64,000 bases of DNA, taken from positions 98,206-162,205 of the forward strand of contig OZ245332.1 of NCBI GenBank assembly GCA_965226065.1, written 5' to 3'. The translations under genes and the position numbers were made by a program. The notes beneath the pieces were generated by a model, which had not been told where the DNA came from, searched no databases, and saw only the letters and a program-made list of their open reading frames with translations. This document shows, piece after piece, positions 1 through 19,640 of the stretch. The stretch comes from Spirochaetia bacterium (GTDB lineage: Bacteria > Spirochaetota > Spirochaetia > WTKD01 > G963693115). The first letter of the stretch is position 1. The number at the start of each line of letters is the position of its first letter.

Positions 1-308
1 TGCATCGACTGTCGCTATACTAGTATCGCTTGATTTATAGGTAATAGCACCTGTGTCGTCTGCTACTTCCTTTGTTTTGCGTATCTCTTGTTTATAAGAT
101 GATGTTTCAGTAATTGATGCTTTATCGCTTTTTTTAGCAAAGCTAATGGTTGTGCCTTGAATAAGTTGAGTCTTTGTGGTCTCACCTTCTACGGTATTAC
201 TTGAAGCTTTGGATGTTTTTTCTGATTTGGGACTATCGCAGGCTGCGATAAGGAAGTTTAATAAAAGGAATATATATATATATATATATATAGGTTCTTG
301 TATATCAT
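1..308 (-). CDS. BspA-like (DUF285/LRR-type) surface lipoprotein, N-terminal part only; gene runs off the left edge of the window. The upstream ATG is currently out of frame across a (TA)11 tract
   Basis: Minus-strand translation of 1..270 reads FLLLNFLIAACDSPKSEKTSKASSNTVEGETTKTQLIQGTTISFAKKSDKASITETSSYKQEIRKTKEVADDTGAITYKSSDTSIATVDA. This gives a lipobox (LIAAC) and an N-domain like the 18585..19640 product (CDSPKSKKT..., YTSSNKAIATVDNAG). An AAGGAG RBS (complement of 315..320) and ATG (complement of 306..308) lie upstream, but that frame reads MIYKNLYIYIYIYIYSFY-stop through (TA)11 at 271..292. Confidence 0.5.
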
Positions 309-575
309 GGATTACTCCTTATATAAGTAAAGTTTCTATAAGCTTAAAGGCTTACTATATATATAATAGACACTTTTGATATATTTTCAAGAGCTTTGCT
401 GTCAGTTCGCATACTCCTATATAGTAGTATTTTGATAAAACATGGTGTGTAATATAGCAAAAAGCATGACAGAAAGATATAATAAAAACAATTACTTCAT
501 AATATGTTTCTTTCAATATCATTTAAGATTCTTAAGAAGAAGTAAGCATGATCTACGTATTTTAGAGGTTTTTAT

Positions 576-1145: not shown

Positions 1146-1262
1146 ATAGACCTTTGATTAAAGAACGCACAGGAAAAGTTAGTCGCTTTAGGATTAATGA
1201 TAAGGAAATCTACGCAAGAATCATCATCAAGAACAAGAGACTCTCTTCTTAGGAGGCACAAC

Positions 1263-3812
1263 ATGAGCCAAGACACCATACAATTTCACCTTAGAAGAGC
1301 AGGGCGTTATTACAAAGAAGGCAAATACGAAAAGGCGATAAAAACGCTTACATTGATTATCAATTCAGACGCACCAGATGACATCAAGGCAGATGTATAC
1401 AACAACAGAGGACTTGCCAAATACGACTTACAGAGGTACGAGGAAGCGATAGAGGATTATGACAAGGCGATAGAACTACAGTCCGACCATGTTGAGACAT
1501 ACAACAACTTCACCAAGCTTGATCGCAAAGATCCCGCCGAACTACAGCTCAACTATGCAAATGCATACAACAACAGAGGCGCTGCCAAAGAAAAATTACA
1601 GAGATACGAAGAGGCGATAGAAGATTACGACAAGGCGATAAAACTACAGCCCAACCATGCCGCAGCATATAACAACAGAGGCAGTGCCAAAGGAGAATTA
1701 CAGAGATACGAGGAAGCGATAGAAGATTACGACAAGGCGATAAAACGAAAGCATGACTATGCAGATGCATACTACAACAGAGGCAATGCCAAAGGAAAAT
1801 TACAGAGACACGAGGAAGCGATAGAAGATTACGACAAAGCGATAGAGCTACAGCTTGACCATGTTGAGGCATACTACAATAGAGGCAGTGCCAAAGGAAA
1901 ATTACAGAGATACGAGGAAGCGATAGAGGATTACGACAAGGCGATAAAATTACAGCCCAACCATGCCGCAGCATATAACAACAGAGGCAATGCCAAAAAC
2001 AGCTTACAGAGATACGAGGAAGCGATAGAGGATTATGACAAGGCGATAGAAAGACAGCCCAACCTTGCAGATGCATATAGCAACAGAGGCGCTACCAAAG
2101 ACAAATTACAGAGATACGAAGAAGCGATAGAGGATTACGACAAGGCGATAGAAAGACAGCCCGACTATGCCGAGGCATGGTACAACTGTATAAAAAATGC
2201 TACAAAAGAGTTAGAAGAAAGACAGCCCGACTATGCCGAGGCATGGTACAACAGAGGCAATGCCAAACGTAGCTTGGGGAGGTACGAAGAGGCGATAGCG
2301 GACTACGACAAGGCGATAGAACGAAAGCATGACTATGCAGATGCATACAACAATAGAGGCGCTACCAAAGACAAATTACAGAGATACGAGGAAGCGATAG
2401 AAGATTACGACAAGGCGATAGAACGAAAGCATGACTATGCAGATGCATACAACAACAGAGGACTTGCCAAAGCCAAATTACAGAGATACGAAGAGGTGAT
2501 AGAAGATTATGATAAGGCGATAGAACTACAGCCCGAAGATGCCAATGCATGGTTCAACAGAGGCAATGCCAAAAACAACTTACAGAGATACGAGGAAGCG
2601 ATAGCGGATTACGACAAGGCGATAGAGTTACAGCCTAAGCTTGCCGAGGCATACAACAACAGAGGCGTTGCCAAATACGACTTACAGAGGTACGAAGAAG
2701 CGATAGAAGATTACGACAAGGCGATAGAGCTACAATCCGACCATGCAGGTGCATACCGCAACAGAGGCAATGCCAAATACGACTTACAGAGATACGAAGA
2801 GGCGATAGCGGATTACGACAAGGCGATAGAGCTACAACCCGACCATGCAGGGGCATACTACAACAGAGGCGTTGCCAAAGCCAAATTACAGAGATATGAA
2901 GAGGCGATAGCGGATTACGACAAGGCGATAGAGCTACAGCCTAATCTTGCCAATGCATGGTTCAATAGAGGCAATGCCAAAGGCAGCTTACAGAGACACG
3001 AAGAGGCGATAGCGGATTTTGACACAGCGATAGAATTACAGCCCGACTATGCTAAGGTATACCACAACAGAGGCGTTGCCAAACATAGCTTGGGGAGATA
3101 CGAGGAAGCGATAAGGGATTACTACAAGGCGATAGAGCTACAGTGTGAGAACGCAAAGAAAGACTTTAAAACAATAACATGCTATAAGTTCATCCCCATT
3201 AGCAAAAACAGCATAAACATGCTGGTAAAAAACATGGTGTATTTTAGCGATGTTCCGTCCCTGAACGACCCGCTGGAATGCCCTCTTTTGTTAACAATAT
3301 TTCAGGGCGTATTTGAAGGCAAACATGAACCGCGTATTTTCTCACTCGTGGTTCCACCTCCCAATGACAAACCAGATGAGTATGGGATACATGAGGTCGT
3401 ACGCAACACACTCCTTTTCAGCCACTATGCAGATGCGCACAAGGGAATATGCATAGGGTACGAAATAGCTCCAGAGTTTCTGCAACAAGGCACGATGTTC
3501 TATACACCTGTGCAATATAGCAAGAATACAATACCAGATAGCCTGGAGAAGCTCTTTGCCATTAAGGATGAGCTATGGAAATATGAGCATGAGGGGCGTT
3601 TTGTAGCCTTTGGCACAGAGAAACACTATCAATTGCAAGGGAATTCACGCATTACAAGGCTTATCTTTGGGCTTAAAACACCTGGAAAAGACAAGACTTT
3701 GTTGTCGAAACTTCTACAAGGTAAAGGAATAGGCTTATATGATACCTACAGTGATGAATATAGTTCTTTTGATCTCAAGTTTAAGGTTCGCAAACAATCT
3801 CATATCTCATAA
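1263..3812 (+). CDS. TPR-repeat protein with C-terminal DUF2971 domain (paralog 1, roughly 18-19 TPR units)
   Basis: AGGAGG RBS 7 nt upstream of ATG 1263; the ORF-track start at 1197 is probably too early. The N-terminus MSQDTIQFHLRRAGRYYKEGKYEKAIKTL is homologous to MTQGIE..NRATRYRKEGKYEEAI of paralogs 2 and 3. Long array of 34-aa units (AYNNRGNAKxxLQRYEEAIEDYDKAIELQP). The C-terminal ~230 aa carry DUF2971 hallmarks: LVKNMVYFSDVPSLNDPLECPL, LLFSHYADAHKGICIGYEI and LWKYEHEGRFVAF. The last codons (KQSHIS) derive from a copy of the TM2 gene 5' end. Confidence 0.85.
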   Translation: MSQDTIQFHLRRAGRYYKEGKYEKAIKTLTLIINSDAPDDIKADVYNNRGLAKYDLQRYEEAIEDYDKAIELQSDHVETYNNFTKLDRKDPAELQLNYANAYNNRGAAKEKLQRYEEAIEDYDKAIKLQPNHAAAYNNRGSAKGELQRYEEAIEDYDKAIKRKHDYADAYYNRGNAKGKLQRHEEAIEDYDKAIELQLDHVEAYYNRGSAKGKLQRYEEAIEDYDKAIKLQPNHAAAYNNRGNAKNSLQRYEEAIEDYDKAIERQPNLADAYSNRGATKDKLQRYEEAIEDYDKAIERQPDYAEAWYNCIKNATKELEERQPDYAEAWYNRGNAKRSLGRYEEAIADYDKAIERKHDYADAYNNRGATKDKLQRYEEAIEDYDKAIERKHDYADAYNNRGLAKAKLQRYEEVIEDYDKAIELQPEDANAWFNRGNAKNNLQRYEEAIADYDKAIELQPKLAEAYNNRGVAKYDLQRYEEAIEDYDKAIELQSDHAGAYRNRGNAKYDLQRYEEAIADYDKAIELQPDHAGAYYNRGVAKAKLQRYEEAIADYDKAIELQPNLANAWFNRGNAKGSLQRHEEAIADFDTAIELQPDYAKVYHNRGVAKHSLGRYEEAIRDYYKAIELQCENAKKDFKTITCYKFIPISKNSINMLVKNMVYFSDVPSLNDPLECPLLLTIFQGVFEGKHEPRIFSLVVPPPNDKPDEYGIHEVVRNTLLFSHYADAHKGICIGYEIAPEFLQQGTMFYTPVQYSKNTIPDSLEKLFAIKDELWKYEHEGRFVAFGTEKHYQLQGNSRITRLIFGLKTPGKDKTLLSKLLQGKGIGLYDTYSDEYSSFDLKFKVRKQSHIS

Positions 3813-5253: not shown

Positions 5254-6501
5254 TTACATTGTATCTCGCGTGGCTCCGAAACTCAGCAAGTACTCACGAT
5301 AGTACTCGTACTGTGCTCTGCGTGCCTTAAGTTCTGCAGGCAAGCCGATGCTTATGTCGTTCACTAAGGCGTCAAACTTGTCTAAAAGAGACACAATGCG
5401 TTCTTGCACAGGTAGGGGAGGTATGGGGATGGTGAGTTTAGCAACATCTTTTGAATAAACATGAGGAACTCCGCTTCCGCTTTTAAGATTGTGTAATACA
5501 TTTTGACAGTTTTTTAAAAAATGAAAAGCATATTTTGTAAGCAATAAACATTTATTTGTTTTTATTGAAAAGGCATCTGATACAAAAATTTCGGTCGTCC
5601 AATAACTAACAAAACCCGCATACGCACCGCTTCCCGCAATTACAATTGTTTCGCCATCTCTATTTCCTTTGTTATGATAATAGGCCGCTTTTCTGCCACC
5701 TGCAATAACAGGGATGTCACCACTTGAAATATTTTTTTTAGTTATGGATGTTCCTCGCTTAAGTTCCGCAACTTCTCCCAACGCCCTCCACTCCACGTCA
5801 TCGCCAAAGGTGAGAAGCTTCTCACGGTAGTGCTTATACTGCGCTACGCGCGCCTCAAGCTCCGCCTCAAGCTCCGCCTCAAGCTCCGCCTCAAGCTCCG
5901 CCTCAAGCTCCGCCTCAAGCTCCGCCTCAAGCTCCGTGAATGTGTCTAGCACGCCTACAATGTACTCTTGCACAGGTAGGGGTGGTATGGGGATTAGATA
6001 TTTTTTTATATCGTTAAAATTAACTGATGAAAATGTTGCACCAGAAGCTTTACTGGCAAGTACTTGTCCATGTATTTGCATAATATGAAAAAGATATTTG
6101 CTTATAACTTTTTTAGTAGCTTGTATTCCACATAAACCTCTGCCTATACAAATTTTTCTATCAGTATAATTTATTGCCCCTACAGGTGCTCGAACACTCA
6201 TTATTACGTTATGAGCTTCTATAATTTTTGTTATTTTAGAAGTATGCTTTTGAGAGTTAGCAACAACATAGTTAGTAAAATGGGATTTTCCTTGATGAAA
6301 TTCTAAATCATTTTTGTTTGATGAAACAAACTTACCTTCTGGAGATTGTCCCATTATAAGATTAAAGTAATTTATATCCCCCAGCGCTCTATACTCCACC
6401 CCGTGCGGGCAGTGCTCGGCCATCAGCCGTTCCAGCGTATTCATAGTGCACTCATGATGGTTCGCCAATAATCCCGCATAGTCCCATGATATCATGCACA
6501 T
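5254..6501 (-). CDS. hsdS: Type I restriction-modification specificity subunit HsdS (copy 1; TRD-A + TRD-B), with 7 tandem ELEA repeats in the central spacer
   Basis: Two-TRD architecture. Conserved central and C-terminal segments: IPIPPLPVQE...LD.FTELEA...RVAQYKHYREKLLTF and IPIPPLPVQERIVSLLDKFDALVNDISIGLPAELKARRAQYEYYREYLLSF. Seven 12-bp units (cctcaagctccg) at 5853..5936 encode (ELEA)7. No hsdM or hsdR in the window. The start may really be at the MNTL... methionine rather than MCMIS.... Confidence 0.85.
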   Translation of the reverse strand: MCMISWDYAGLLANHHECTMNTLERLMAEHCPHGVEYRALGDINYFNLIMGQSPEGKFVSSNKNDLEFHQGKSHFTNYVVANSQKHTSKITKIIEAHNVIMSVRAPVGAINYTDRKICIGRGLCGIQATKKVISKYLFHIMQIHGQVLASKASGATFSSVNFNDIKKYLIPIPPLPVQEYIVGVLDTFTELEAELEAELEAELEAELEAELEAELEARVAQYKHYREKLLTFGDDVEWRALGEVAELKRGTSITKKNISSGDIPVIAGGRKAAYYHNKGNRDGETIVIAGSGAYAGFVSYWTTEIFVSDAFSIKTNKCLLLTKYAFHFLKNCQNVLHNLKSGSGVPHVYSKDVAKLTIPIPPLPVQERIVSLLDKFDALVNDISIGLPAELKARRAQYEYYREYLLSFGATRDTM

Positions 6502-6708: not shown

Positions 6709-8661
6709 ATGACTCAAGGCATAGAATTGAACTTCAATAGAGCGACACGATATCGCAAAGAAGGCAAATATGAAGAGGCGATAGAAACGCTTACATTGAT
6801 TATCAAATCAGACGCACCAGATGACATCAAGGCAGGTGCATACTACAATAGAGGCGTTGCCAAACACGACTTAGAGAGATACGAGGAAGCGATAAGGGAT
6901 TACGACAAGGCGATAGAGCTACAGCCTAAGCTTGCCGAGGCATACAACAACAGAGGACTTGCCAAACACGACTTAGAGAGATACGAGGAAGCGATAGCGG
7001 ATTACGACAAGGCGATAGAACTACAGCCTAAGTTTACCGAGGCATGGTACAACAGAGGACTTGCCAAATACGCCTTACAGAGGTACGAGGAAGCGATAGC
7101 GGATTACGACAAGGCGATAGAACTACAGCCTAAGCTTGCCGGGGCATACAACAACAGAGGACTTGCCAAACACGACTTAGAGAGATACGAGGAAGCGATA
7201 GCGGATTACGACAAGGCGATAGAGCTACAGCCTAAGCTTGCCGAGGCATACAACAACAGAGGCAATGCCAAACGTAGCTTGGGGAGATACGAGGAAGCGA
7301 TAAGGGATTTCGACAAGGCGATAGAGCTACAGCCCGACTATGCTAAGGCATACAACAACAGAGGACTTGCCAAACACGACTTAGAGAGATACGAGGAAGC
7401 GATAGCGGATTACGACAAGGCGATAGAACTACAGCCTAAGCTTACCGAGGCATGGTACAACAGAGGACTTGCCAAATACGCCTTACAGAGGTACGAGGAA
7501 GCGATAGCGGATTACGACAAGGCGATAGAACTACAGCCTAAGCTTGCCGGGGCATACAACAACAGAGGACTTGCCAAACACGACTTAGAGAGATACGAGG
7601 AAGCGATAGCGGATTACGACAAGGCGATAGAGCTACAGCCTAAGCTTGCCGAGGCATACAACAACAGAGGCAATGCCAAACGTAGCTTGGGGAGATACGA
7701 GGAAGCGATAAGGGATTTCGACAAGGCGATAGAGCTACAGCCCGACTATGCTAAGGCATACAACAACAGAGGACTTGCCAAACACGACTTAGAGAGATAC
7801 GAGGAAGCGATAGCGGATTACGACAAGGCGATAGAGCTACAGCCTAAGCTTGCCGAGGCATACTACAATAGAGGCAATGCCAAATACAAATTAAAAAGAT
7901 ATGAAGAGGCGAAAGACGACCATCATCAGGCAATTAAGCTGCAATGTGAGAATGCACAAGAAAAATATAAGCCCATAACAAGCTATAAGTTCAGACCCAT
8001 CAATAAAAACACCATAAGCCTTTTGGTACAAGGTGAATTATATTTTAGCGATATTCCATCCCTGAACGACCCGCTGGAATGCCCCCTGATGCACTTCATG
8101 TATAAAGATATATTCAAAGATGCCAATAAGCCGCACATTTTGTCACTGGTTGTCCCCTCTCATCAACATACAAAAAACAAAGACGGAATATATACGGATC
8201 TGGTAAACAACACCTTGCTCTTCAGCCATTATGCTGATTCACACAAGGGCATATGCATAGAATACGAAATACAAGAAACACTATTAAAACAAGAACAAGC
8301 ACGCATATTCTACACCTCTGTACAATACAGCACAAACACAGAAGCACAAAATATTGAAAAACTCTTTGCCATTAAGGATGAAAAATGGAAATACGAGAAC
8401 GAAGCGCGCTTTATAGCCTTTGATGAGCAACAAGAGCCAACACGCCCGGGCAACATATATAAAGGTGGTGTGCACATTAAGAAAATAATATTCGGACTTG
8501 AAACGCCTAAGGAAGACAAAAAGCTATTGTACACCCTCTTGCACAAAGAAAACAAAGAACATTTACAAGGCATAAAGTTTTTTAACACAGAAAGCAAACC
8601 CAAAAGCTTTTTCACCCTGAAGTTTACGCCGTATACACCGCCAGACCAGGTTGGTTCATAA
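6709..8661 (+). CDS. TPR-repeat protein with C-terminal DUF2971 domain (paralog 2, roughly 11-12 TPR units; contains a perfect ~408-bp 4-TPR tandem duplication)
   Basis: Same unit structure as paralog 1. The C-terminal domain reads LLVQGELYFSDIPSLNDPLECPL, LLFSHYADSHKGICIEYEI and KWKYENEARFIAF. The 6937..7344 segment is repeated at 7345..7752 almost base for base. Confidence 0.85.
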   Translation: MTQGIELNFNRATRYRKEGKYEEAIETLTLIIKSDAPDDIKAGAYYNRGVAKHDLERYEEAIRDYDKAIELQPKLAEAYNNRGLAKHDLERYEEAIADYDKAIELQPKFTEAWYNRGLAKYALQRYEEAIADYDKAIELQPKLAGAYNNRGLAKHDLERYEEAIADYDKAIELQPKLAEAYNNRGNAKRSLGRYEEAIRDFDKAIELQPDYAKAYNNRGLAKHDLERYEEAIADYDKAIELQPKLTEAWYNRGLAKYALQRYEEAIADYDKAIELQPKLAGAYNNRGLAKHDLERYEEAIADYDKAIELQPKLAEAYNNRGNAKRSLGRYEEAIRDFDKAIELQPDYAKAYNNRGLAKHDLERYEEAIADYDKAIELQPKLAEAYYNRGNAKYKLKRYEEAKDDHHQAIKLQCENAQEKYKPITSYKFRPINKNTISLLVQGELYFSDIPSLNDPLECPLMHFMYKDIFKDANKPHILSLVVPSHQHTKNKDGIYTDLVNNTLLFSHYADSHKGICIEYEIQETLLKQEQARIFYTSVQYSTNTEAQNIEKLFAIKDEKWKYENEARFIAFDEQQEPTRPGNIYKGGVHIKKIIFGLETPKEDKKLLYTLLHKENKEHLQGIKFFNTESKPKSFFTLKFTPYTPPDQVGS

Positions 8662-8860: not shown

Positions 8861-9776
8861 ATGATGATATATAAGAAAGCAATAGCCCTTCTGTCCCTTC
8901 TTTTGACCTTAATTATCGCAGCATGCGAAAACCCCCAACCAACATAGAGAAAAACGGTAAAGCCGACACGGATACAGACTCCGAAGGAGAATCTGCAGGC
9001 GAAACAGGCAACGAATCCGAAGACGATGGCGAAGACGCAGCCCCCGCCGCATATAGTTTTGCATTTGACACGGCAGCCACAAGGTTGCATTCACCTCAGG
9101 TGGCACATACACCCGTGCCGTCGTCGAGACAAACAAGCCCGCAGGCGACGCACGGGCTACTACATATACCTCAAGCGAGGGCAAGATAGCCACGGTCAAC
9201 GAAGCAGGTGTCGTAACCTTTGTGACCCAGGGCACGGTGACCATCACGGCCACCAAGACAGCGGAACCTGGCCATGAAAAAGCTACTGCCAGCTATGAAC
9301 TTACCATTACCAAAATGAAGCCCGCAAATAAACAGGCACTTGCCAATGAAATAACCCGAGCGATGGATGCACACGGCAACAAAGTCAACCTCAACTACAT
9401 AGACGTCTCTGATATCACCGACATGAGCTATCTTTTTAGTAGCCATGCATTCGGTTATGGGCGTCAGGCATTCAATGGCGACATATCAGAGTGGAAGGTG
9501 GCAAAGGTGACCAATATGTTCGCTACGTTTGAAGGTGCTACTGCGTTCGATCAGAATATCTCAAAGTGGGATGTGTCAGGGGTTGAAGATATGGTTTTTA
9601 TGTTTAAGGATGCAACCTCGTTCAAGCAGAACCTCAATGCATGGGGGAACAGAATAAACAACGCTTTAAAAGCTGATAAATGGAGAAATACAAAAATTAT
9701 GTTTACAGGCAGCGGTCTTGCGGACAATCTCCCTTCATGGTGTGCAAGTGTGCAAGCGTGTAGAAATGGACAATAA
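8861..9776 (+). pseudogene. BspA-like (DUF285) surface lipoprotein gene disrupted by two frameshifts
   Basis: AAGGAG RBS then MMIYKKAIALLSLLLTLIIAACENPQPT-stop. The frame continues in +1 after a C5 tract (8932..8936) as ...AAYSFAFDTAATR. A second shift occurs near 9075..9085 into the 9222..9776 frame (VAFTSGGTYTRAVVETNKPAGD...TYTSSEGKIATVNEAGVVTFV...). That frame aligns with the 18585..19640 protein and carries DUF285 units (NLNYIDVSDITDMSYLF..., ISKWDVSGVEDMVFMF). Confidence 0.6.
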
Positions 9777-12180: not shown

Positions 12181-13407
12181 TTACATTGTATTTCGCGTGG
12201 CTTCGAAACTAAGCAAGTACTCACGATAGTACTCGTACTGTGCTCTGCGTGCCTTAAGTTCTGCAGGCAAGCCGATGCTTATGTCGTTCACTAAGGCGTC
12301 AAACTTGTCTAAAAGAGACACAATGCGTTCTTGCTCTGCAAGGGGCGGTATGGGGATAGAAAACTTATTTATTATTGAAGAATTTATATTATTGATAGTA
12401 GTGCTACAGATACTTTTTTTAAGATATTGCAAGAAATTACCGCTACCTAACAAATAAAAAATAAATTGAGAATTAATACTTTTATTACATCTTATAACTG
12501 CCATAAAGCCACCAAAGTAGTAATCTATATTGTTATTAATATATGCAACTTTTCCTACATGGGCTTTACTTCCACTTGCTACGCTCATAAGAATATCACC
12601 TTTTTTTAACTTTTGCGTATCTTTAATTTTGGTATCTTTAGACACAACTTTAACATCTTCAAAGTTTAATCTATTATTTAATATGTCAATATTATTCGCT
12701 CTTAATATTTTGAAACCACTGTTTAAAGTTGTTTCCTGCGATTTATTGTAAGTAACCCCTCGCACATATTTAGCAATTTCTCCTAATTCTCTATATTCCA
12801 CGTCATGGCCAAAGGTGAGCAGCTTCTCACGGTAGTACTTATACTGCGCTACGCGCGCCTCAAGCTCCGCCTCAAGCTCCGTAAAGCTGTCGAGTATCTT
12901 TACGATTGCTTCTTGCACAGGTAGGGGTGGTATGGGTATGGGCAGTTTGGCAACATCTTTTGAATAAACATGAGGAACTCCGCTTCCGCTTTTAAGATTG
13001 TGTAATACATTTTGACAGTTTTTTAAAAAATGAAAAGCATATTTTGTAAGCAATAAATATTTATTTGTTTTTATTGAAAAGGCATCTGATACAAAAATTT
13101 CGGTCGTCCAATAACTAACAAAACCCGCATACGCACCGCTTCCCGCAATTACAATTGTTTCGCCATCTCTATTTCCTTTGTTATGATAATAGGCCGCTTT
13201 TCTGCCACCTGCAATAACAGGGATGTCACCACTTGAAATATTTTTTTTAGTTATGGATGTTCCCCGCTTAAGTTCCGCAACTTCTCCCAATTCTCTATAC
13301 TCCACCCCGTGCGGGCAGTGCTCGGACATCAGCCGTTTCAGCGTATTCATAGTGCACTCATGATGGTTCGCCAATAATCCCGCATAGTCCCATGATATCA
13401 TGCACAT
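12181..13407 (-). CDS. hsdS: Type I R-M specificity subunit HsdS (copy 2; TRD-B + TRD-C), 2 ELEA repeats in the central spacer
   Basis: Identical N- and C-terminal conserved regions to copy 1. Its first TRD (GEVAELKRGTSITKKNISSGDIPVIAGG...AKLPIPIPPLPVQE) is the same sequence that forms the second TRD of copy 1; its second TRD is unique. Only two cctcaagctccg units are present. Confidence 0.85.
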   Translation of the reverse strand: MCMISWDYAGLLANHHECTMNTLKRLMSEHCPHGVEYRELGEVAELKRGTSITKKNISSGDIPVIAGGRKAAYYHNKGNRDGETIVIAGSGAYAGFVSYWTTEIFVSDAFSIKTNKYLLLTKYAFHFLKNCQNVLHNLKSGSGVPHVYSKDVAKLPIPIPPLPVQEAIVKILDSFTELEAELEARVAQYKYYREKLLTFGHDVEYRELGEIAKYVRGVTYNKSQETTLNSGFKILRANNIDILNNRLNFEDVKVVSKDTKIKDTQKLKKGDILMSVASGSKAHVGKVAYINNNIDYYFGGFMAVIRCNKSINSQFIFYLLGSGNFLQYLKKSICSTTINNINSSIINKFSIPIPPLAEQERIVSLLDKFDALVNDISIGLPAELKARRAQYEYYREYLLSFEATRNTM

Positions 13408-13592: not shown

Positions 13593-15512
13593 ATGACTCA
13601 AGGCATAGAATCGTACTTCAATAGAGCGACACGATATTACAAAGAAGGCAAGTATGAAGAGGCGATAAAAACGCTTACATTGATTATCAAATCAGACGCA
13701 CCAGATGACATCAAGGTAGGTGCGTACAACAACAGAGGACTTACCAAAGACAGCTTGGGGAGCTACGAGGAAGCGATAAGGGATTACGACAAGGCGATAG
13801 AGCTACAGCCCGACTATGCCGCAGCATACCACAACAGAGGACTTGCCAAAAACAGCTTACAGAGATACGAAGAAGCGATAAAAGATTACGACAAGGCGAT
13901 AGAGCTACAGCCCGACTATGCCAATGCATGGTTCAACAGAGGCGTTACTAAATACAACTTAAGAAGATACGAGGAAGTGATAGAGGATTACGACAAGGGG
14001 ATAGAACTACAGCCCGACGATGCTAAGGCATACCACAACAGAGGTGTTGCTAAATACAACTTAAAAAGATACGAGGAAGCGATAGAGGATTACGACAAGG
14101 CGATAGAGCTACAGCCTAAGCTTGCCGAGACATACAACAACAGAGGCACTGCCAAATACAACTTACAGAGATACGAGGAAGCGATAGAAGATTACGACAA
14201 GGCGATAGAGCTACAGCCTAAGCTTGCCAAGGCATACTACAACAGAGGTAATGCGTACCATGAGCAAGCACAATACAACAAAGCAATAGTAGACTACACG
14301 CAGGTCATTAAACTGCCCACAGATGATAACACCAAAGCAGGAGCGTATGCTGGCAGAGGTACTGCATACGCCAAGCAAAAAGAATACAACGAAGCAATAA
14401 ATGATTTCAATGCTGCCCTACAGTACGGCATATCCGATGAAGTTATAAAAACATATCGCAAGCAAGAAGAAAAGGGCATTGCTAAAAACATATTAGAAGT
14501 ATTTGAAAGCACGGCGCAGATATTAAACCAACTAAAAGTACCTAAAGATTCTAAAGACACAGAATATCTTTCGCATACTACTAGATTGCCCGTGTTTATT
14601 CAACTCCTTGTTCCTGCACATAAGAACGAAAAACAACCACTAGGGATCTTTCGTATGTACCACATTGCCTACACCAACGACCCAACTGAAGGCAGGGTCT
14701 TGTTCAATAATATGAATATACCCCTTGATGAAGCAACACAGGGTAGGGACATACCTTATGTGATGGTAACAAGCTTTTGTGGAGGTAAAAACCCACAAGC
14801 ATTAGACACCTTGCCCATATGGAAGATGTACGGCGATGATGCACAAGGCATAGGCCTGTTATTTAAGAAAAGCGACATAGCCTACGATAAAAAAGGACAT
14901 GCCATGCCACATTATTTTGAATCTACTATGCTTAGCGACACTGGAAATACCAATAAGAAAGTCACACATGCGACATCACAACCCTTGCCAAATGAAGCAG
15001 ATGAAAAGAATGTTACACCCCCACAGATACTCTACAAGGTCTACTATGTGAAGAGTGATGAAACAGATGAAACAAAGAGTGATGAAATATATGGAAAGTT
15101 AAAAGACATAAAAACAAATCTTGAGACGATACAGAAACAACAAGATATACACAACAAAACCCTAGAGTTGCTAAACGGTATACGGTATCTCATAAAAGAC
15201 ATAAAATATGCCTACGAAGAAGAATACCGCCTCTTGTGCTTTGCAAATAAGGAACAAGTCCCAAAGATACTACAAAGCCAAGACATCACAGAACAAACTG
15301 AAAGCACCAAAGACACGAATACGGGTAGTCTACCACGTATACGTATCTACATAGAGACAGAAATATTAAAAAAACTCTGCAAGGTAATAACCGCCCCTAA
15401 AGTAAATAAGGAACAAGCCTTAAACATACAGTATCTTTTGCATTTCTATAAGGAAGAATTGCCAAAGCTGGAAGAAGAACCCCTATATACCAGCAATATA
15501 CCCTACCGCTAA
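13593..15512 (+). CDS. TPR-repeat protein (roughly 7 units) with a divergent, insertion-containing DUF2971-like C-terminal domain (paralog 3)
   Basis: N-terminus MTQGIESYFNRATRYYKEGKYEEAI plus TPR units as in paralogs 1 and 2. The C-terminal domain has GIFRMYHIAYTNDPTEGRVLF (NDPxE motif) and KYAYEEEYRLLCF (W/YxYExE-R motif) with extra inserted sequence. Confidence 0.8.
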   Translation: MTQGIESYFNRATRYYKEGKYEEAIKTLTLIIKSDAPDDIKVGAYNNRGLTKDSLGSYEEAIRDYDKAIELQPDYAAAYHNRGLAKNSLQRYEEAIKDYDKAIELQPDYANAWFNRGVTKYNLRRYEEVIEDYDKGIELQPDDAKAYHNRGVAKYNLKRYEEAIEDYDKAIELQPKLAETYNNRGTAKYNLQRYEEAIEDYDKAIELQPKLAKAYYNRGNAYHEQAQYNKAIVDYTQVIKLPTDDNTKAGAYAGRGTAYAKQKEYNEAINDFNAALQYGISDEVIKTYRKQEEKGIAKNILEVFESTAQILNQLKVPKDSKDTEYLSHTTRLPVFIQLLVPAHKNEKQPLGIFRMYHIAYTNDPTEGRVLFNNMNIPLDEATQGRDIPYVMVTSFCGGKNPQALDTLPIWKMYGDDAQGIGLLFKKSDIAYDKKGHAMPHYFESTMLSDTGNTNKKVTHATSQPLPNEADEKNVTPPQILYKVYYVKSDETDETKSDEIYGKLKDIKTNLETIQKQQDIHNKTLELLNGIRYLIKDIKYAYEEEYRLLCFANKEQVPKILQSQDITEQTESTKDTNTGSLPRIRIYIETEILKKLCKVITAPKVNKEQALNIQYLLHFYKEELPKLEEEPLYTSNIPYR

Positions 15513-18584: not shown

Positions 18585-19640
18585 TTAATCCGGACGTTTT
18601 TTAGCACAAGGACCTTTGCACCATGTGGGAAATCTAGAAAAAACAGGTAGAAATTCTCTAAGAAACATATCCCGTTTATATATTCTCTTAAACTTGAAGT
18701 AGTTTCCCCATTTTTGGAGATCTTGATTGAATGCGTTAGCATTCTTGAACATGTATGCTATATTTGTAACTGCTCTCATGTCCCAATCCGATATATCTTG
18801 ATTAAAGCTTGTAGCACTTTGAAACATGCTTCTCATATCCGTAACCGCCGCTACGTTCCATGTCCCTATATTTTGATTAAAGCTTGTAGCACTTTCAAAC
18901 ATGCTTTTCATATCCGTAACCGCCGCTACGTTCCATGTCCCTATATTTTGATTAAAGCTCGTAGCACCGACAAACATTTGGCGCATATTTTCAACTTCTA
19001 ATACCTTCCAGCCTGATATGTCGATGTTAAAAACTGTATTATCTTGAAACATTTCCTCCATAGTTCTTACCTTAGAAGTATCCCACATGGAGATATCGCC
19101 ATTGAATTCGTGAAACCCATAGCCTTCTACTTCTAGACTTACCTCATGATCTTTTCTAAACAGCGAGCTCATATCGGTGATGGCAGAGGTGTCTATGTAG
19201 TTGAGGTCGACCATATTTCCTTTAGCAGTCGTAGCTCGTTCTATTTCAGCTACCAGAGCGTCCTTAAGTTGGGGTTTGAACTTTTCTATGTTTAATTTGT
19301 AGCTGTCAGTTATCTCATCGTATCCATCTGAAGCTTCTTTTGTAGCGGTGATGGTAACTTTGCCCAAGCTAACAAAGCTTACTACTCCTGCATTATCGAC
19401 CGTGGCTATCGCTTTATTACTTGATGTATACACAATATCTCGGGTATCGCCTGTTGGCTTACTTGTTTCGCTTACGGGTTTGTTGTATGTGCCATTTGTC
19501 GTGTATTCAACCTCGTAGCTGTTTTTATCAAAGGCAAAGCTGTAAGCGACAGACTTGTCTGTTTTTTTTGATTTTGGACTATCGCATGCTGCGATAAAAA
19601 AGGTAAATGCAAGTATTAAAATTACATTAAAATGTTTCAT
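18585..19640 (-). CDS. BspA-like (DUF285, Mycoplasma-type LRR) surface lipoprotein
   Basis: Lipobox FIAACDSP. C-terminal repeats of about 26 aa (SFNQNIGTWNVAAVTDMKSMFESAT; FNGDISMWDTSKV). Confidence 0.8.
   Translation of the reverse strand: MKHFNVILILAFTFFIAACDSPKSKKTDKSVAYSFAFDKNSYEVEYTTNGTYNKPVSETSKPTGDTRDIVYTSSNKAIATVDNAGVVSFVSLGKVTITATKEASDGYDEITDSYKLNIEKFKPQLKDALVAEIERATTAKGNMVDLNYIDTSAITDMSSLFRKDHEVSLEVEGYGFHEFNGDISMWDTSKVRTMEEMFQDNTVFNIDISGWKVLEVENMRQMFVGATSFNQNIGTWNVAAVTDMKSMFESATSFNQNIGTWNVAAVTDMRSMFQSATSFNQDISDWDMRAVTNIAYMFKNANAFNQDLQKWGNYFKFKRIYKRDMFLREFLPVFSRFPTWCKGPCAKKRPD

What the first reader, a model, noticed from the sequence alone, without database searches (positions are those of the whole stretch)
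271..308. (TA)11 tract between an RBS-ATG and the lipobox of a BspA-like lipoprotein gene; the gene is currently frame-OFF
On the minus strand AAGGAG-(7 nt)-ATG (complement of 306..308) is followed by ATA TAC AAG AAC C, then (TA)11 (271..292), then TTCCTTTTATTAAAC.... With 11 units the ATG frame runs into TAA. With 10 units (or 13, or 7) it would read MIYKNLYIYIYIFLLLNFLIAACDSPKSEK..., a textbook lipoprotein signal peptide continuous with the BspA-like N-domain encoded in 1..270. A dinucleotide repeat whose length toggles translation of a surface protein is the signature of slipped-strand phase variation.
Basis: seen in the sequence. Interest (0 to 1): 0.65.

Follow-up and report, generated by a model that had tools for sequence, protein, structure and literature searches.

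The report
TA-repeat on/off switch in lipoprotein gene
A run of eleven TA units just after the start codon of a surface-lipoprotein gene of an uncultured spirochaete puts the gene out of frame; near-identical copies elsewhere carry 11, 12 or 13 units and the 13-unit copy is intact, so this is a good new example of an ordinary repeat-length phase-variation switch.

Summary
(TA)11 lies at 271..292, downstream of AAGGAG (320..315) and ATG (308..306) on the minus strand. The ATG frame stops at TAA 260..258. The lipobox frame (LIAAC, Cys codon 240..238) would be joined only when n = 7, 10 or 13. Two small corrections: the RBS-ATG spacer is 6 nt, not 7, and bases 1..270 encode no detectable domain, not a BspA/DUF285 domain.

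Four more copies of the same leader were found in two other long-read metagenome assemblies. Their flanks are near-identical (alignment mean column identity 95%) but n = 13, 11, 12 and 12. The n = 13 copy, the positional orthologue of the window gene, is in frame and encodes a 478-aa lipoprotein with three Big_2 stretches and a DUF285/PARCEL domain.

In a related genome, homologous genes carry (AAGC)6-30 or (AGGC)52-54 at almost the same codon. Of 16 repeat-bearing genes, 2 are ON and 14 OFF.

The mechanism is the known one: frame switching by a simple repeat inside signal-peptide DNA, as in oipA and autA/autB. It is a new member of a known kind. Heterogeneity within one population was not testable, and an error in the long-read consensus is not fully excluded.

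The parts
363..390 (-). Promoter-like site TTGAAA-16 nt-TATTAT, about 55 nt upstream of the ATG
   Evidence: 10 of 12 consensus matches. It is invariant in all five leader copies. A consensus match only; function is inferred.
309..425 (-). Conserved leader cassette (5' UTR with promoter and RBS) shared by all TA-type copies
   Evidence: Homology among window, L001 and the three L002 copies begins about 115 bp upstream of the ATG.
315..320 (-). Ribosome-binding site AAGGAG, 6 nt before the ATG
   Evidence: The same AAGGAGTAA(A/T)CC-ATG is found in paralogues and in relatives.
306..308 (-). Start codon ATG
   Evidence: It is used as the called start of the in-frame 478-aa orthologue (L002 4064).
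271..292 (.). (TA)11 simple sequence repeat. It occupies codons 6-13 of the signal peptide, encoding L(YI)n when in frame.
   Evidence: Length varies 11/12/13 among copies.
258..260 (-). TAA that ends the ATG frame after 16 codons at n = 11 (OFF state)
238..270 (-). Rest of the signal peptide h-region and the lipobox (FLLLNFLIAAC; Cys codon 240..238), in the frame reached only when n = 1 mod 3
   Evidence: The lipobox pattern matches those of paralogues (FFIAAC, LIIAAC).
1..237 (-). N-terminal part of the mature protein; no Pfam domain is detected in this part. The gene runs off the window start.
   Evidence: The orthologue continues to three Big_2 stretches plus DUF285/PARCEL.
8861..9776 (+). 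Paralogue with the same RBS and MMIYK leader but no repeat. It is disrupted by a stop and further frameshifts (pseudogene).
18585..19640 (-). Intact paralogue without a repeat (MKHFNVILILAFTFFIAACDSPKSKK...; Big_2 + DUF285)

Best explanation
The tract is a contingency-locus switch working at the level of translation.

The gene encodes a surface lipoprotein: signal peptide with lipobox, three Ig-like Big_2 stretches, and a C-terminal DUF285/PARCEL ('BspA-like') domain. It belongs to an uncultured spirochaete with a genome of about 1.85 Mb.

Shown by sequence:
- Translation would start at ATG 308..306, 6 nt after AAGGAG.
- The (TA)n run lies inside the signal-peptide coding region.
- n = 1 mod 3 (7, 10, 13) joins the start codon to the lipobox frame and gives the full precursor. 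n = 2 mod 3 stops after about 16 codons and n = 0 mod 3 after about 25.
- Here n = 11, so the gene is OFF.

Inferred:
- Slipped-strand mispairing during replication adds or removes TA units, so lineages flip the gene ON and OFF.
- Because the repeat lies upstream of the lipobox cysteine, signal peptidase II would remove it. ON alleles of different length would then yield the same mature protein.
- Tandem paralogues each carry their own tract, which would allow combinatorial expression.
For: - Anatomy and frames.
- The tract is far beyond chance: none expected in shuffles.
- Five leader copies carry n = 11, 12, 13, 11 and 12 with flanks otherwise near-identical.
- The n = 13 copy is ON and gives 478 aa, with three Big_2 stretches (67.6 bits) and DUF285 (85.5 bits).
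- The window and L002 are distinct strains: 97.2% identity and 25 SNPs over 1148 bp. The 4-bp TA difference therefore sits in real divergence.
- Housekeeping proteins have equal or nearly equal lengths in the two genomes (1152/1152, 836/836, 416/416, 116/116, 508/509). This argues against pervasive indel error.
- The start codon and signal peptide are corroborated by the SSR-free paralogue.
- In about 165 kb of related DNA, 15 of the 16 repeats over threshold lie within about 12-20 nt after a leader ATG or within its signal-peptide coding region. They are (TA)11-13, (AAGC)6-30 and (AGGC)52-54.
- The promoter-like site lies upstream of the RBS, so the tract is not a promoter spacer.
- Precedents exist: CT repeats in the oipA signal-peptide DNA (PMC10564699) and AAGC repeats in the autA/autB signal-sequence DNA (PMC5118866). 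Contingency repeats at the 5' ends of PARCEL/DUF285 lipoprotein genes are reported in mycoplasmas (PMC2996958).
Against: - No read-level data were available, so heterogeneity within a population and reversibility are untested.
- All sequences come from long-read metagenome assemblies at 8x, 1.6x and unknown coverage. Differences of one or two TA units are the kind of error such consensus can make. L001 and L002 copy 2 also carry single-A homopolymer indels.
- Only 2 of 16 repeat-bearing genes are ON, and 0 of 9 AAGC genes (P = 0.06 and 0.026 against an expectation of 1/3). This also fits decay into pseudogenes.
- The rest of the window gene lies outside the window, so its integrity is unknown.
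- No lipoprotein signal-peptide predictor was available.
Confidence: 0.8

Rival explanations
1. Assembly or consensus artefact. The true tract length is the same, and in frame, in all copies, and the 11/12/13 values are long-read errors in a dinucleotide run.
For: All sources are long-read metagenome contigs (names of the form ctgN_coverage_l; coverage 1.64x for L001 and 8.02x for L002). Single-base homopolymer indels occur in the same alignment: A8 vs A7 in L002 copy 2, and A4 vs A3 in L001.
Against: Three different lengths occur within one 8x contig. Housekeeping ORFs are intact and of equal length in both genomes. Relatives show repeat counts from 6 to 54 units at the same site, far beyond any error model. 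The gene family shows the same out-of-frame pattern in independent contigs.
Confidence: 0.08
2. Neutral decay. The gene family is degenerating, and the repeat is a slippage-prone relic in dead genes with no adaptive switching.
For: 14 of 16 repeat-bearing genes are OFF. There is an extra A8 frameshift in L002 copy 2. The window paralogue at 8861 is a multiply disrupted pseudogene.
Against: In most OFF copies the downstream frame stays open for 300 or more codons. RBS, ATG and lipobox are invariant among copies. Three different repeat units occupy nearly the same codon in a conserved leader, which argues for selection of mutability. An ON allele with a complete 478-aa ORF exists. An excess of OFF alleles is also documented for a real phase-variable gene, autB (PMC5118866).
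Confidence: 0.08
3. Transcriptional switch. The TA run changes promoter geometry, as in Mycoplasma Vmm or Haemophilus hif, rather than the reading frame.
For: TA-type dinucleotide repeats are best known from promoter spacers. Vmm is one case (PMC2628566); hif and Vmc are cited from my own knowledge.
Against: The tract lies 14 nt downstream of the ATG and about 70 nt downstream of the only promoter-like site. The ON/OFF state of the five copies follows n mod 3 exactly.
Confidence: 0.02
4. Leaky OFF state. RNA-polymerase or ribosome slippage on (UA)n, or weak initiation at an in-frame ATA, yields some protein from 'OFF' alleles, so the tract tunes expression level rather than toggling it.
For: None directly. 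The lipobox frame contains ATA codons 11 nt after the RBS. OFF alleles predominate.
Against: No evidence for slippage on dinucleotide runs here. ATA is a very poor initiator (general knowledge).
Confidence: 0.04

Closest known systems
Helicobacter pylori oipA (also hopZ, sabA, babB): CT dinucleotide repeats in the signal-peptide coding region
   Same: A dinucleotide repeat lies between the start codon and the end of the signal peptide. Repeat number sets the frame and so the ON/OFF state, and the product is a surface or outer-membrane protein (PMC10564699).
   Different: The unit is CT rather than TA. The protein is a beta-barrel OMP rather than a lipoprotein, and the organism is an epsilonproteobacterium.
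[quoted passage not shown]
   Same: The repeat sits in signal-sequence DNA and switches the frame. The AAGC unit is the same as in this gene's homologues in the related genome (L004, L005, L007). autB is OFF in about 99% of isolates, which parallels the OFF excess seen here (PMC5118866).
   Different: These are autotransporters, present as single genes rather than a tandem family. The window gene itself uses TA.
Neisseria opa genes: CTCTT pentamer repeats in the signal-peptide coding region
   Same: A multi-gene family of surface proteins in which each member carries its own repeat in the leader peptide, giving combinatorial expression (own knowledge, not checked here).
   Different: A pentanucleotide unit, and OMPs rather than lipoproteins.
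Mycoplasma contingency lipoproteins (Vmm, Vmc, PARCEL/DUF285 lipoproteins)
   Same: The same protein domain (DUF285/PARCEL) and the same logic of modular 5' repeats controlling lipoproteins. Dinucleotide repeats control Vmm. [quoted passage not shown]
   Different: In Vmm/Vmc the dinucleotide repeat is in the promoter and acts on transcription. Here it is inside the ORF and acts on translation. The organisms are Mollicutes, not a spirochaete.
Treponema pallidum repeat-associated variable genes (poly-G tracts near tpr genes)
   Same: SSR-based variable expression of envelope proteins in a spirochaete. The review PMC11868660 lists T. pallidum among species with SSR phase-variation repertoires.
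   Different: Those are homopolymeric G tracts, mostly upstream of genes, in a different protein family.

Membership tests
SSR contingency locus with translational (frameshift) ON/OFF switching | Perfect simple sequence repeat far longer than chance | tested here: met
   (TA)11, 100% perfect. No run of 7 or more units in 100 shuffles, and none elsewhere in the window.
SSR contingency locus with translational (frameshift) ON/OFF switching | The repeat lies inside the ORF, 3' of the start codon, and its unit length is not a multiple of 3 | tested here: met
   The tract begins 14 nt after the ATG and the unit is 2 nt. The ON allele reads through it.
SSR contingency locus with translational (frameshift) ON/OFF switching | Repeat number differs between strains or copies while flanks are conserved | tested here: met
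   n = 11, 12, 13, 11 and 12 in five copies; flanks near-identical, alignment mean column identity 95%.
SSR contingency locus with translational (frameshift) ON/OFF switching | At least one natural allele is in frame and gives a complete protein | tested here: met
   L002 4064..5500, n = 13, 478 aa.
SSR contingency locus with translational (frameshift) ON/OFF switching | High-frequency, reversible length change within a clonal population | not testable with these tools
   No reads or cultures were available. The source genome is not even in the position index.
Bacterial lipoprotein precursor (signal peptidase II substrate) | Positively charged n-region, hydrophobic h-region, and a lipobox [LVI][ASTVI][GAS]C | tested here: met
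   In the ON frame: MIYK (K4), an h-region of 15-19 residues with mean Kyte-Doolittle hydropathy 2.2-2.4, and the lipobox L-I-A-A-C. This is a pattern check only; no dedicated predictor was available.
BspA-like / DUF285 (PARCEL) surface protein | Pfam PF03382 hit above the gathering score | tested here: inconclusive
   Met in the orthologue (85.5 bits against a cut-off of 25; weak NCBIfam PARCEL hits). The 90 residues inside the window hit no family, and the rest of the window gene could not be retrieved.
Promoter-spacer dinucleotide switch (Vmm / Vmc / hif type) | The repeat lies between the -35 and -10 elements or otherwise upstream of the transcription start | tested here: not met
   The tract is downstream of the RBS and ATG. 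The only promoter-like site is at 390..363.

The most novel reading that the evidence does not exclude
The window gene may be one visible member of a large phase-variable repertoire in an uncultured, probably host-associated, spirochaete lineage. In this reading a portable leader cassette (RBS plus M(M)IYK) has acquired different repeat units at almost the same codon: TA, AAGC and AGGC. Some tracts reach 54 units, about 72 extra residues in the signal-peptide n-region. Many Big_2-DUF285 lipoprotein genes are switched independently. The near-universal OFF state in natural populations (14 of 16) would reflect strong selection for expressing very few at a time.
Probability: 0.45. Interest if true: 0.55.

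Novelty: new member of a known kind. Interest (0 to 1): 0.4.

Why it matters
The locus gives a clean, sequence-verified example of repeat-mediated phase variation outside the classical pathogens. It sits in an uncultured spirochaete with a small genome, and it controls DUF285/PARCEL ('BspA-like') lipoproteins, whose function is still unknown.

It also shows that gene callers systematically truncate or miss such genes. OFF copies were called from internal TTG or ATG starts. Surface-protein repertoires of metagenome-assembled genomes are therefore under-annotated wherever leader repeats exist.

An in-frame (TA)n that encodes (Tyr-Ile)n in a signal peptide is an unusual choice of unit. Apart from that, the mechanism is well known.

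Tried and rejected
- A protein search with the hypothetical ON N-terminus found only one error-ridden fragment (P0001). The real 478-aa ON protein is in the collection but the word index missed it.
- Two DNA-pattern scans of the JGI metagenomes found nothing: one for the TA leader with a variable gap, one for the AAGC leader.
- The single genome-contig scan returned only an unrelated Anaerocolumna Big_2 hit. The species is therefore not among the GTDB representatives, and the organism had to be placed by PGK homology. Every hit that carries an organism name is from Spirochaetia or a family within it, at 58-64% identity.
- The source 1.85-Mb contig is not in the gene-position index. The remainder of the window gene and any further tandem copies to the left of the window could not be read.
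- The promoter-spacer interpretation was rejected on position.
- An alternative canonical start in the lipobox frame was rejected: there is no ATG, GTG or TTG in 318..1 of that frame.
- Wise et al. 2006 (PMC1483001), on M. capricolum contingency genes, is not held.

Full report
**What is there**

On the minus strand the sequence reads AAGGAG (320..315), TAATCC, ATG (308..306), ATA TAC AAG AAC C, (TA)11 (292..271), TTC CTT TTA TTA AAC TTC CTT ATC GCA GCC TGC (Cys codon 240..238), GAT AGT CCC AAA....
- TRF reports the tract as a perfect period-2 array.
- No other TA run of 7 or more units exists in the 64 kb window, and none arose in 100 dinucleotide-preserving shuffles.
- The ATG frame gives MIYKNLYIYIYIYSFY and stops at TAA 260..258.
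- The frame two bases away is open from 318 to the window edge and reads ...FLLLNFLIAACDSPKSEKTSK....
- That frame has no ATG, GTG or TTG, so no alternative start can supply a signal peptide.
- Editing n in silico shows ON at 7, 10 and 13 and OFF at every other length from 6 to 15.

There are two small errors. The RBS-ATG spacer is 6 nt, not 7. The part of the protein encoded in 1..270 has no detectable domain (no Pfam hit) and is not a BspA-like domain.

**Where the window comes from**

- Exact look-ups place the window's proteins on a single 1,849,772-bp contig held by NCBI and ENA. Their only cluster mates lie on a 1,800,608-bp contig.
- Neither carries a name, and the species is absent from the GTDB representative genomes.
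- PGK has its closest hits on unnamed contigs. Every hit that carries an organism name is from Spirochaetia or a family within it (Sphaerochaetaceae, Alkalispirochaetaceae, Spirochaetales), at 58-64% identity.
- A Pallilysin domain occurs in the sister genome.

I therefore treat the organism as an uncultured spirochaete with a genome of about 1.8 Mb and about 38% G+C in this window.

**The same locus elsewhere**

A search with the C-terminal part of the gene, taken from a low-coverage contig (L001), found the sister genome. Its locus L002 is syntenic with the window: Mrr_cat, TPR, methylase fragment, TM2.

L002 holds three tandem genes. Each begins with the identical AAGGAGTAATCC-ATGATATACAAGAACC-(TA)n-TTCCTTTTATTAAAC.

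| Copy | n | State | Gene call |
|---|---|---|---|
| L002 copy 1 (next to TM2; positional orthologue of the window gene) | 13 | ON | 478 aa from the predicted ATG |
| L002 copy 2 | 11 | OFF | called from an internal start (P0002) |
| L002 copy 3 | 12 | OFF | called from an internal start (P0005) |
| L001 (third sample) | 12 | OFF | fragment only |
| Window | 11 | OFF | runs off the window |

The ON protein has a lipoprotein signal peptide, three Big_2 stretches and a DUF285/PARCEL domain.

An alignment of the five copies has a mean column identity of 95%. Besides the tract, its indels downstream of the ATG are one in-frame CTT, A8 vs A7 (L002 copy 2) and A4 vs A3 (L001, 1.6x coverage); a few 1-2-base gaps lie in the upstream non-coding part.

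The window and L002 differ by 25 SNPs over 1148 bp, so they are distinct strains. Housekeeping proteins have equal or nearly equal lengths in the two genomes. This argues against general indel noise in either assembly.

**Family context**

The window holds an SSR-free paralogue with the same leader at 8861 on the plus strand. It encodes MMIYKKAIALLSLLLTLIIAAC and is now a pseudogene. There are also intact paralogues with ordinary signal peptides. These fix the start codon and show that the TA run occupies the h-region of the signal peptide.

In contigs from another sample (L004, L005, L007), homologous Big_2-DUF285 genes carry AAGGAGTAAACC-ATGATGATATAT-(AAGC)n-AATAGCCCTTCTG... with n = 6 to 30. 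Two carry (AGGC)52 and (AGGC)54.

Across the window and seven related loci, 15 of the 16 repeats above threshold lie within about 12-20 nt after a leader ATG or within its signal-peptide coding region.

Of the 16 repeat-bearing genes, 2 are in frame and 14 are not. None of the nine AAGC genes has the n = 2 mod 3 needed for ON. The probabilities are 0.06 and 0.026 against an expectation of one third.

**Mechanism**

- A promoter-like TTGAAA-16-TATTAT lies at 390..363 and is invariant among copies.
- The tract is downstream of both the RBS and the ATG, so it cannot act as a promoter spacer.
- The state of every copy follows n mod 3.
- The best explanation is therefore slipped-strand mispairing that changes n and toggles translation of the lipoprotein precursor.
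- The repeat precedes the lipobox cysteine, so ON alleles of different length (Cys at residue 21, 23 or 25) would give the same mature protein.
- The length changes themselves, their reversibility and the surface location are inferred, not shown.

**Comparison with known systems**

The design matches several described cases:
- CT repeats in the oipA signal-peptide DNA of H. pylori (PMC10564699).
- AAGC repeats in the signal-sequence DNA of Neisseria autA/autB, where autB is OFF in about 99% of isolates (PMC5118866).
- From my own knowledge, CTCTT repeats in opa genes.
- PARCEL/DUF285 lipoprotein genes of mycoplasmas, which were already noted to carry homopolymer or dinucleotide repeats in their 5' flanks and poly-G in N-terminal coding regions (PMC2996958).
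- The dinucleotide switch of Vmm, which lies in the promoter (PMC2628566). That feature was tested here and not met.

**Verdict**

This is a real feature, correctly read by the first stage. It is very probably a phase-variation switch. It is a new member of a well-known kind, with an unusual repeat unit, in a little-known organism. Interest is moderate.

The main caveat is that all evidence comes from consensus sequences of long-read metagenome assemblies. Read-level counts of n are the decisive missing test.

Noticed in passing
window 5254..6501 (-) and 12181..13407 (-); repeats at 5851-5936 and 12856-12881: There are two hsdS (Type I R-M specificity) genes with identical N-termini. Their central 12-bp in-frame repeat (ELEA) is present 7 times in one and 2 times in the other. 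The second target-recognition domain of the first gene equals the first domain of the second. This looks like a specificity system varied by domain shuffling and by repeat number.
   Followed up: partly
window 1197..3812, 6709..8661, 13593..15512 (+): Three large TPR-repeat genes built of 102-bp (34-aa) units. Two of them sit directly beside the hsdS copies, suggesting duplicated hsdS-TPR modules.
   Followed up: no
window 8861..9776 (+): A paralogue with the family leader but no repeat. It stops after MMIYKKAIALLSLLLTLIIAACENPQPT and needs at least two more frameshifts to reach its DUF285 ORF (9222..9776). It is probably a pseudogene.
   Followed up: partly
window 19562..19569: An A8 run lies just after the lipobox of the intact paralogue 18585..19640. 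The orthologue in the sister genome is 364 aa rather than 351 aa.
   Followed up: no
L004 7977 and 10725; L005 6402, 12842, 14603, 18504; L007 9847, 14891, 19045: Homologous lipoprotein genes carry (AAGC)6-30 or (AGGC)52-54 right after MMIY. The longest would add about 72 residues of (RQAG)n to the signal-peptide n-region. None of the nine AAGC genes is in frame.
   Followed up: partly
L002 5500-5560 and 7335-7470: A unit of about 48 bp (GGAAATGGCGTTTTCTTTTACTAAGCAG.CTCACTAATTAAAGAAAAGC) is repeated one to three times after each tandem gene copy. By eye, what follows looks like the remnant of the 3' end of a Fic-family gene on the opposite strand.
   Followed up: no
protein collection (P0197): The 478-aa ON protein is in the searched collection as its own cluster. 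Both word-indexed homology searches missed it, so absence from those searches is weak evidence.
   Followed up: yes
L005 8240..9748; L007 20489 onward: The related genome encodes large ankyrin-repeat and RCC1/WD40-like proteins next to the lipoprotein clusters. This hints at a eukaryote-associated lifestyle.
   Followed up: no
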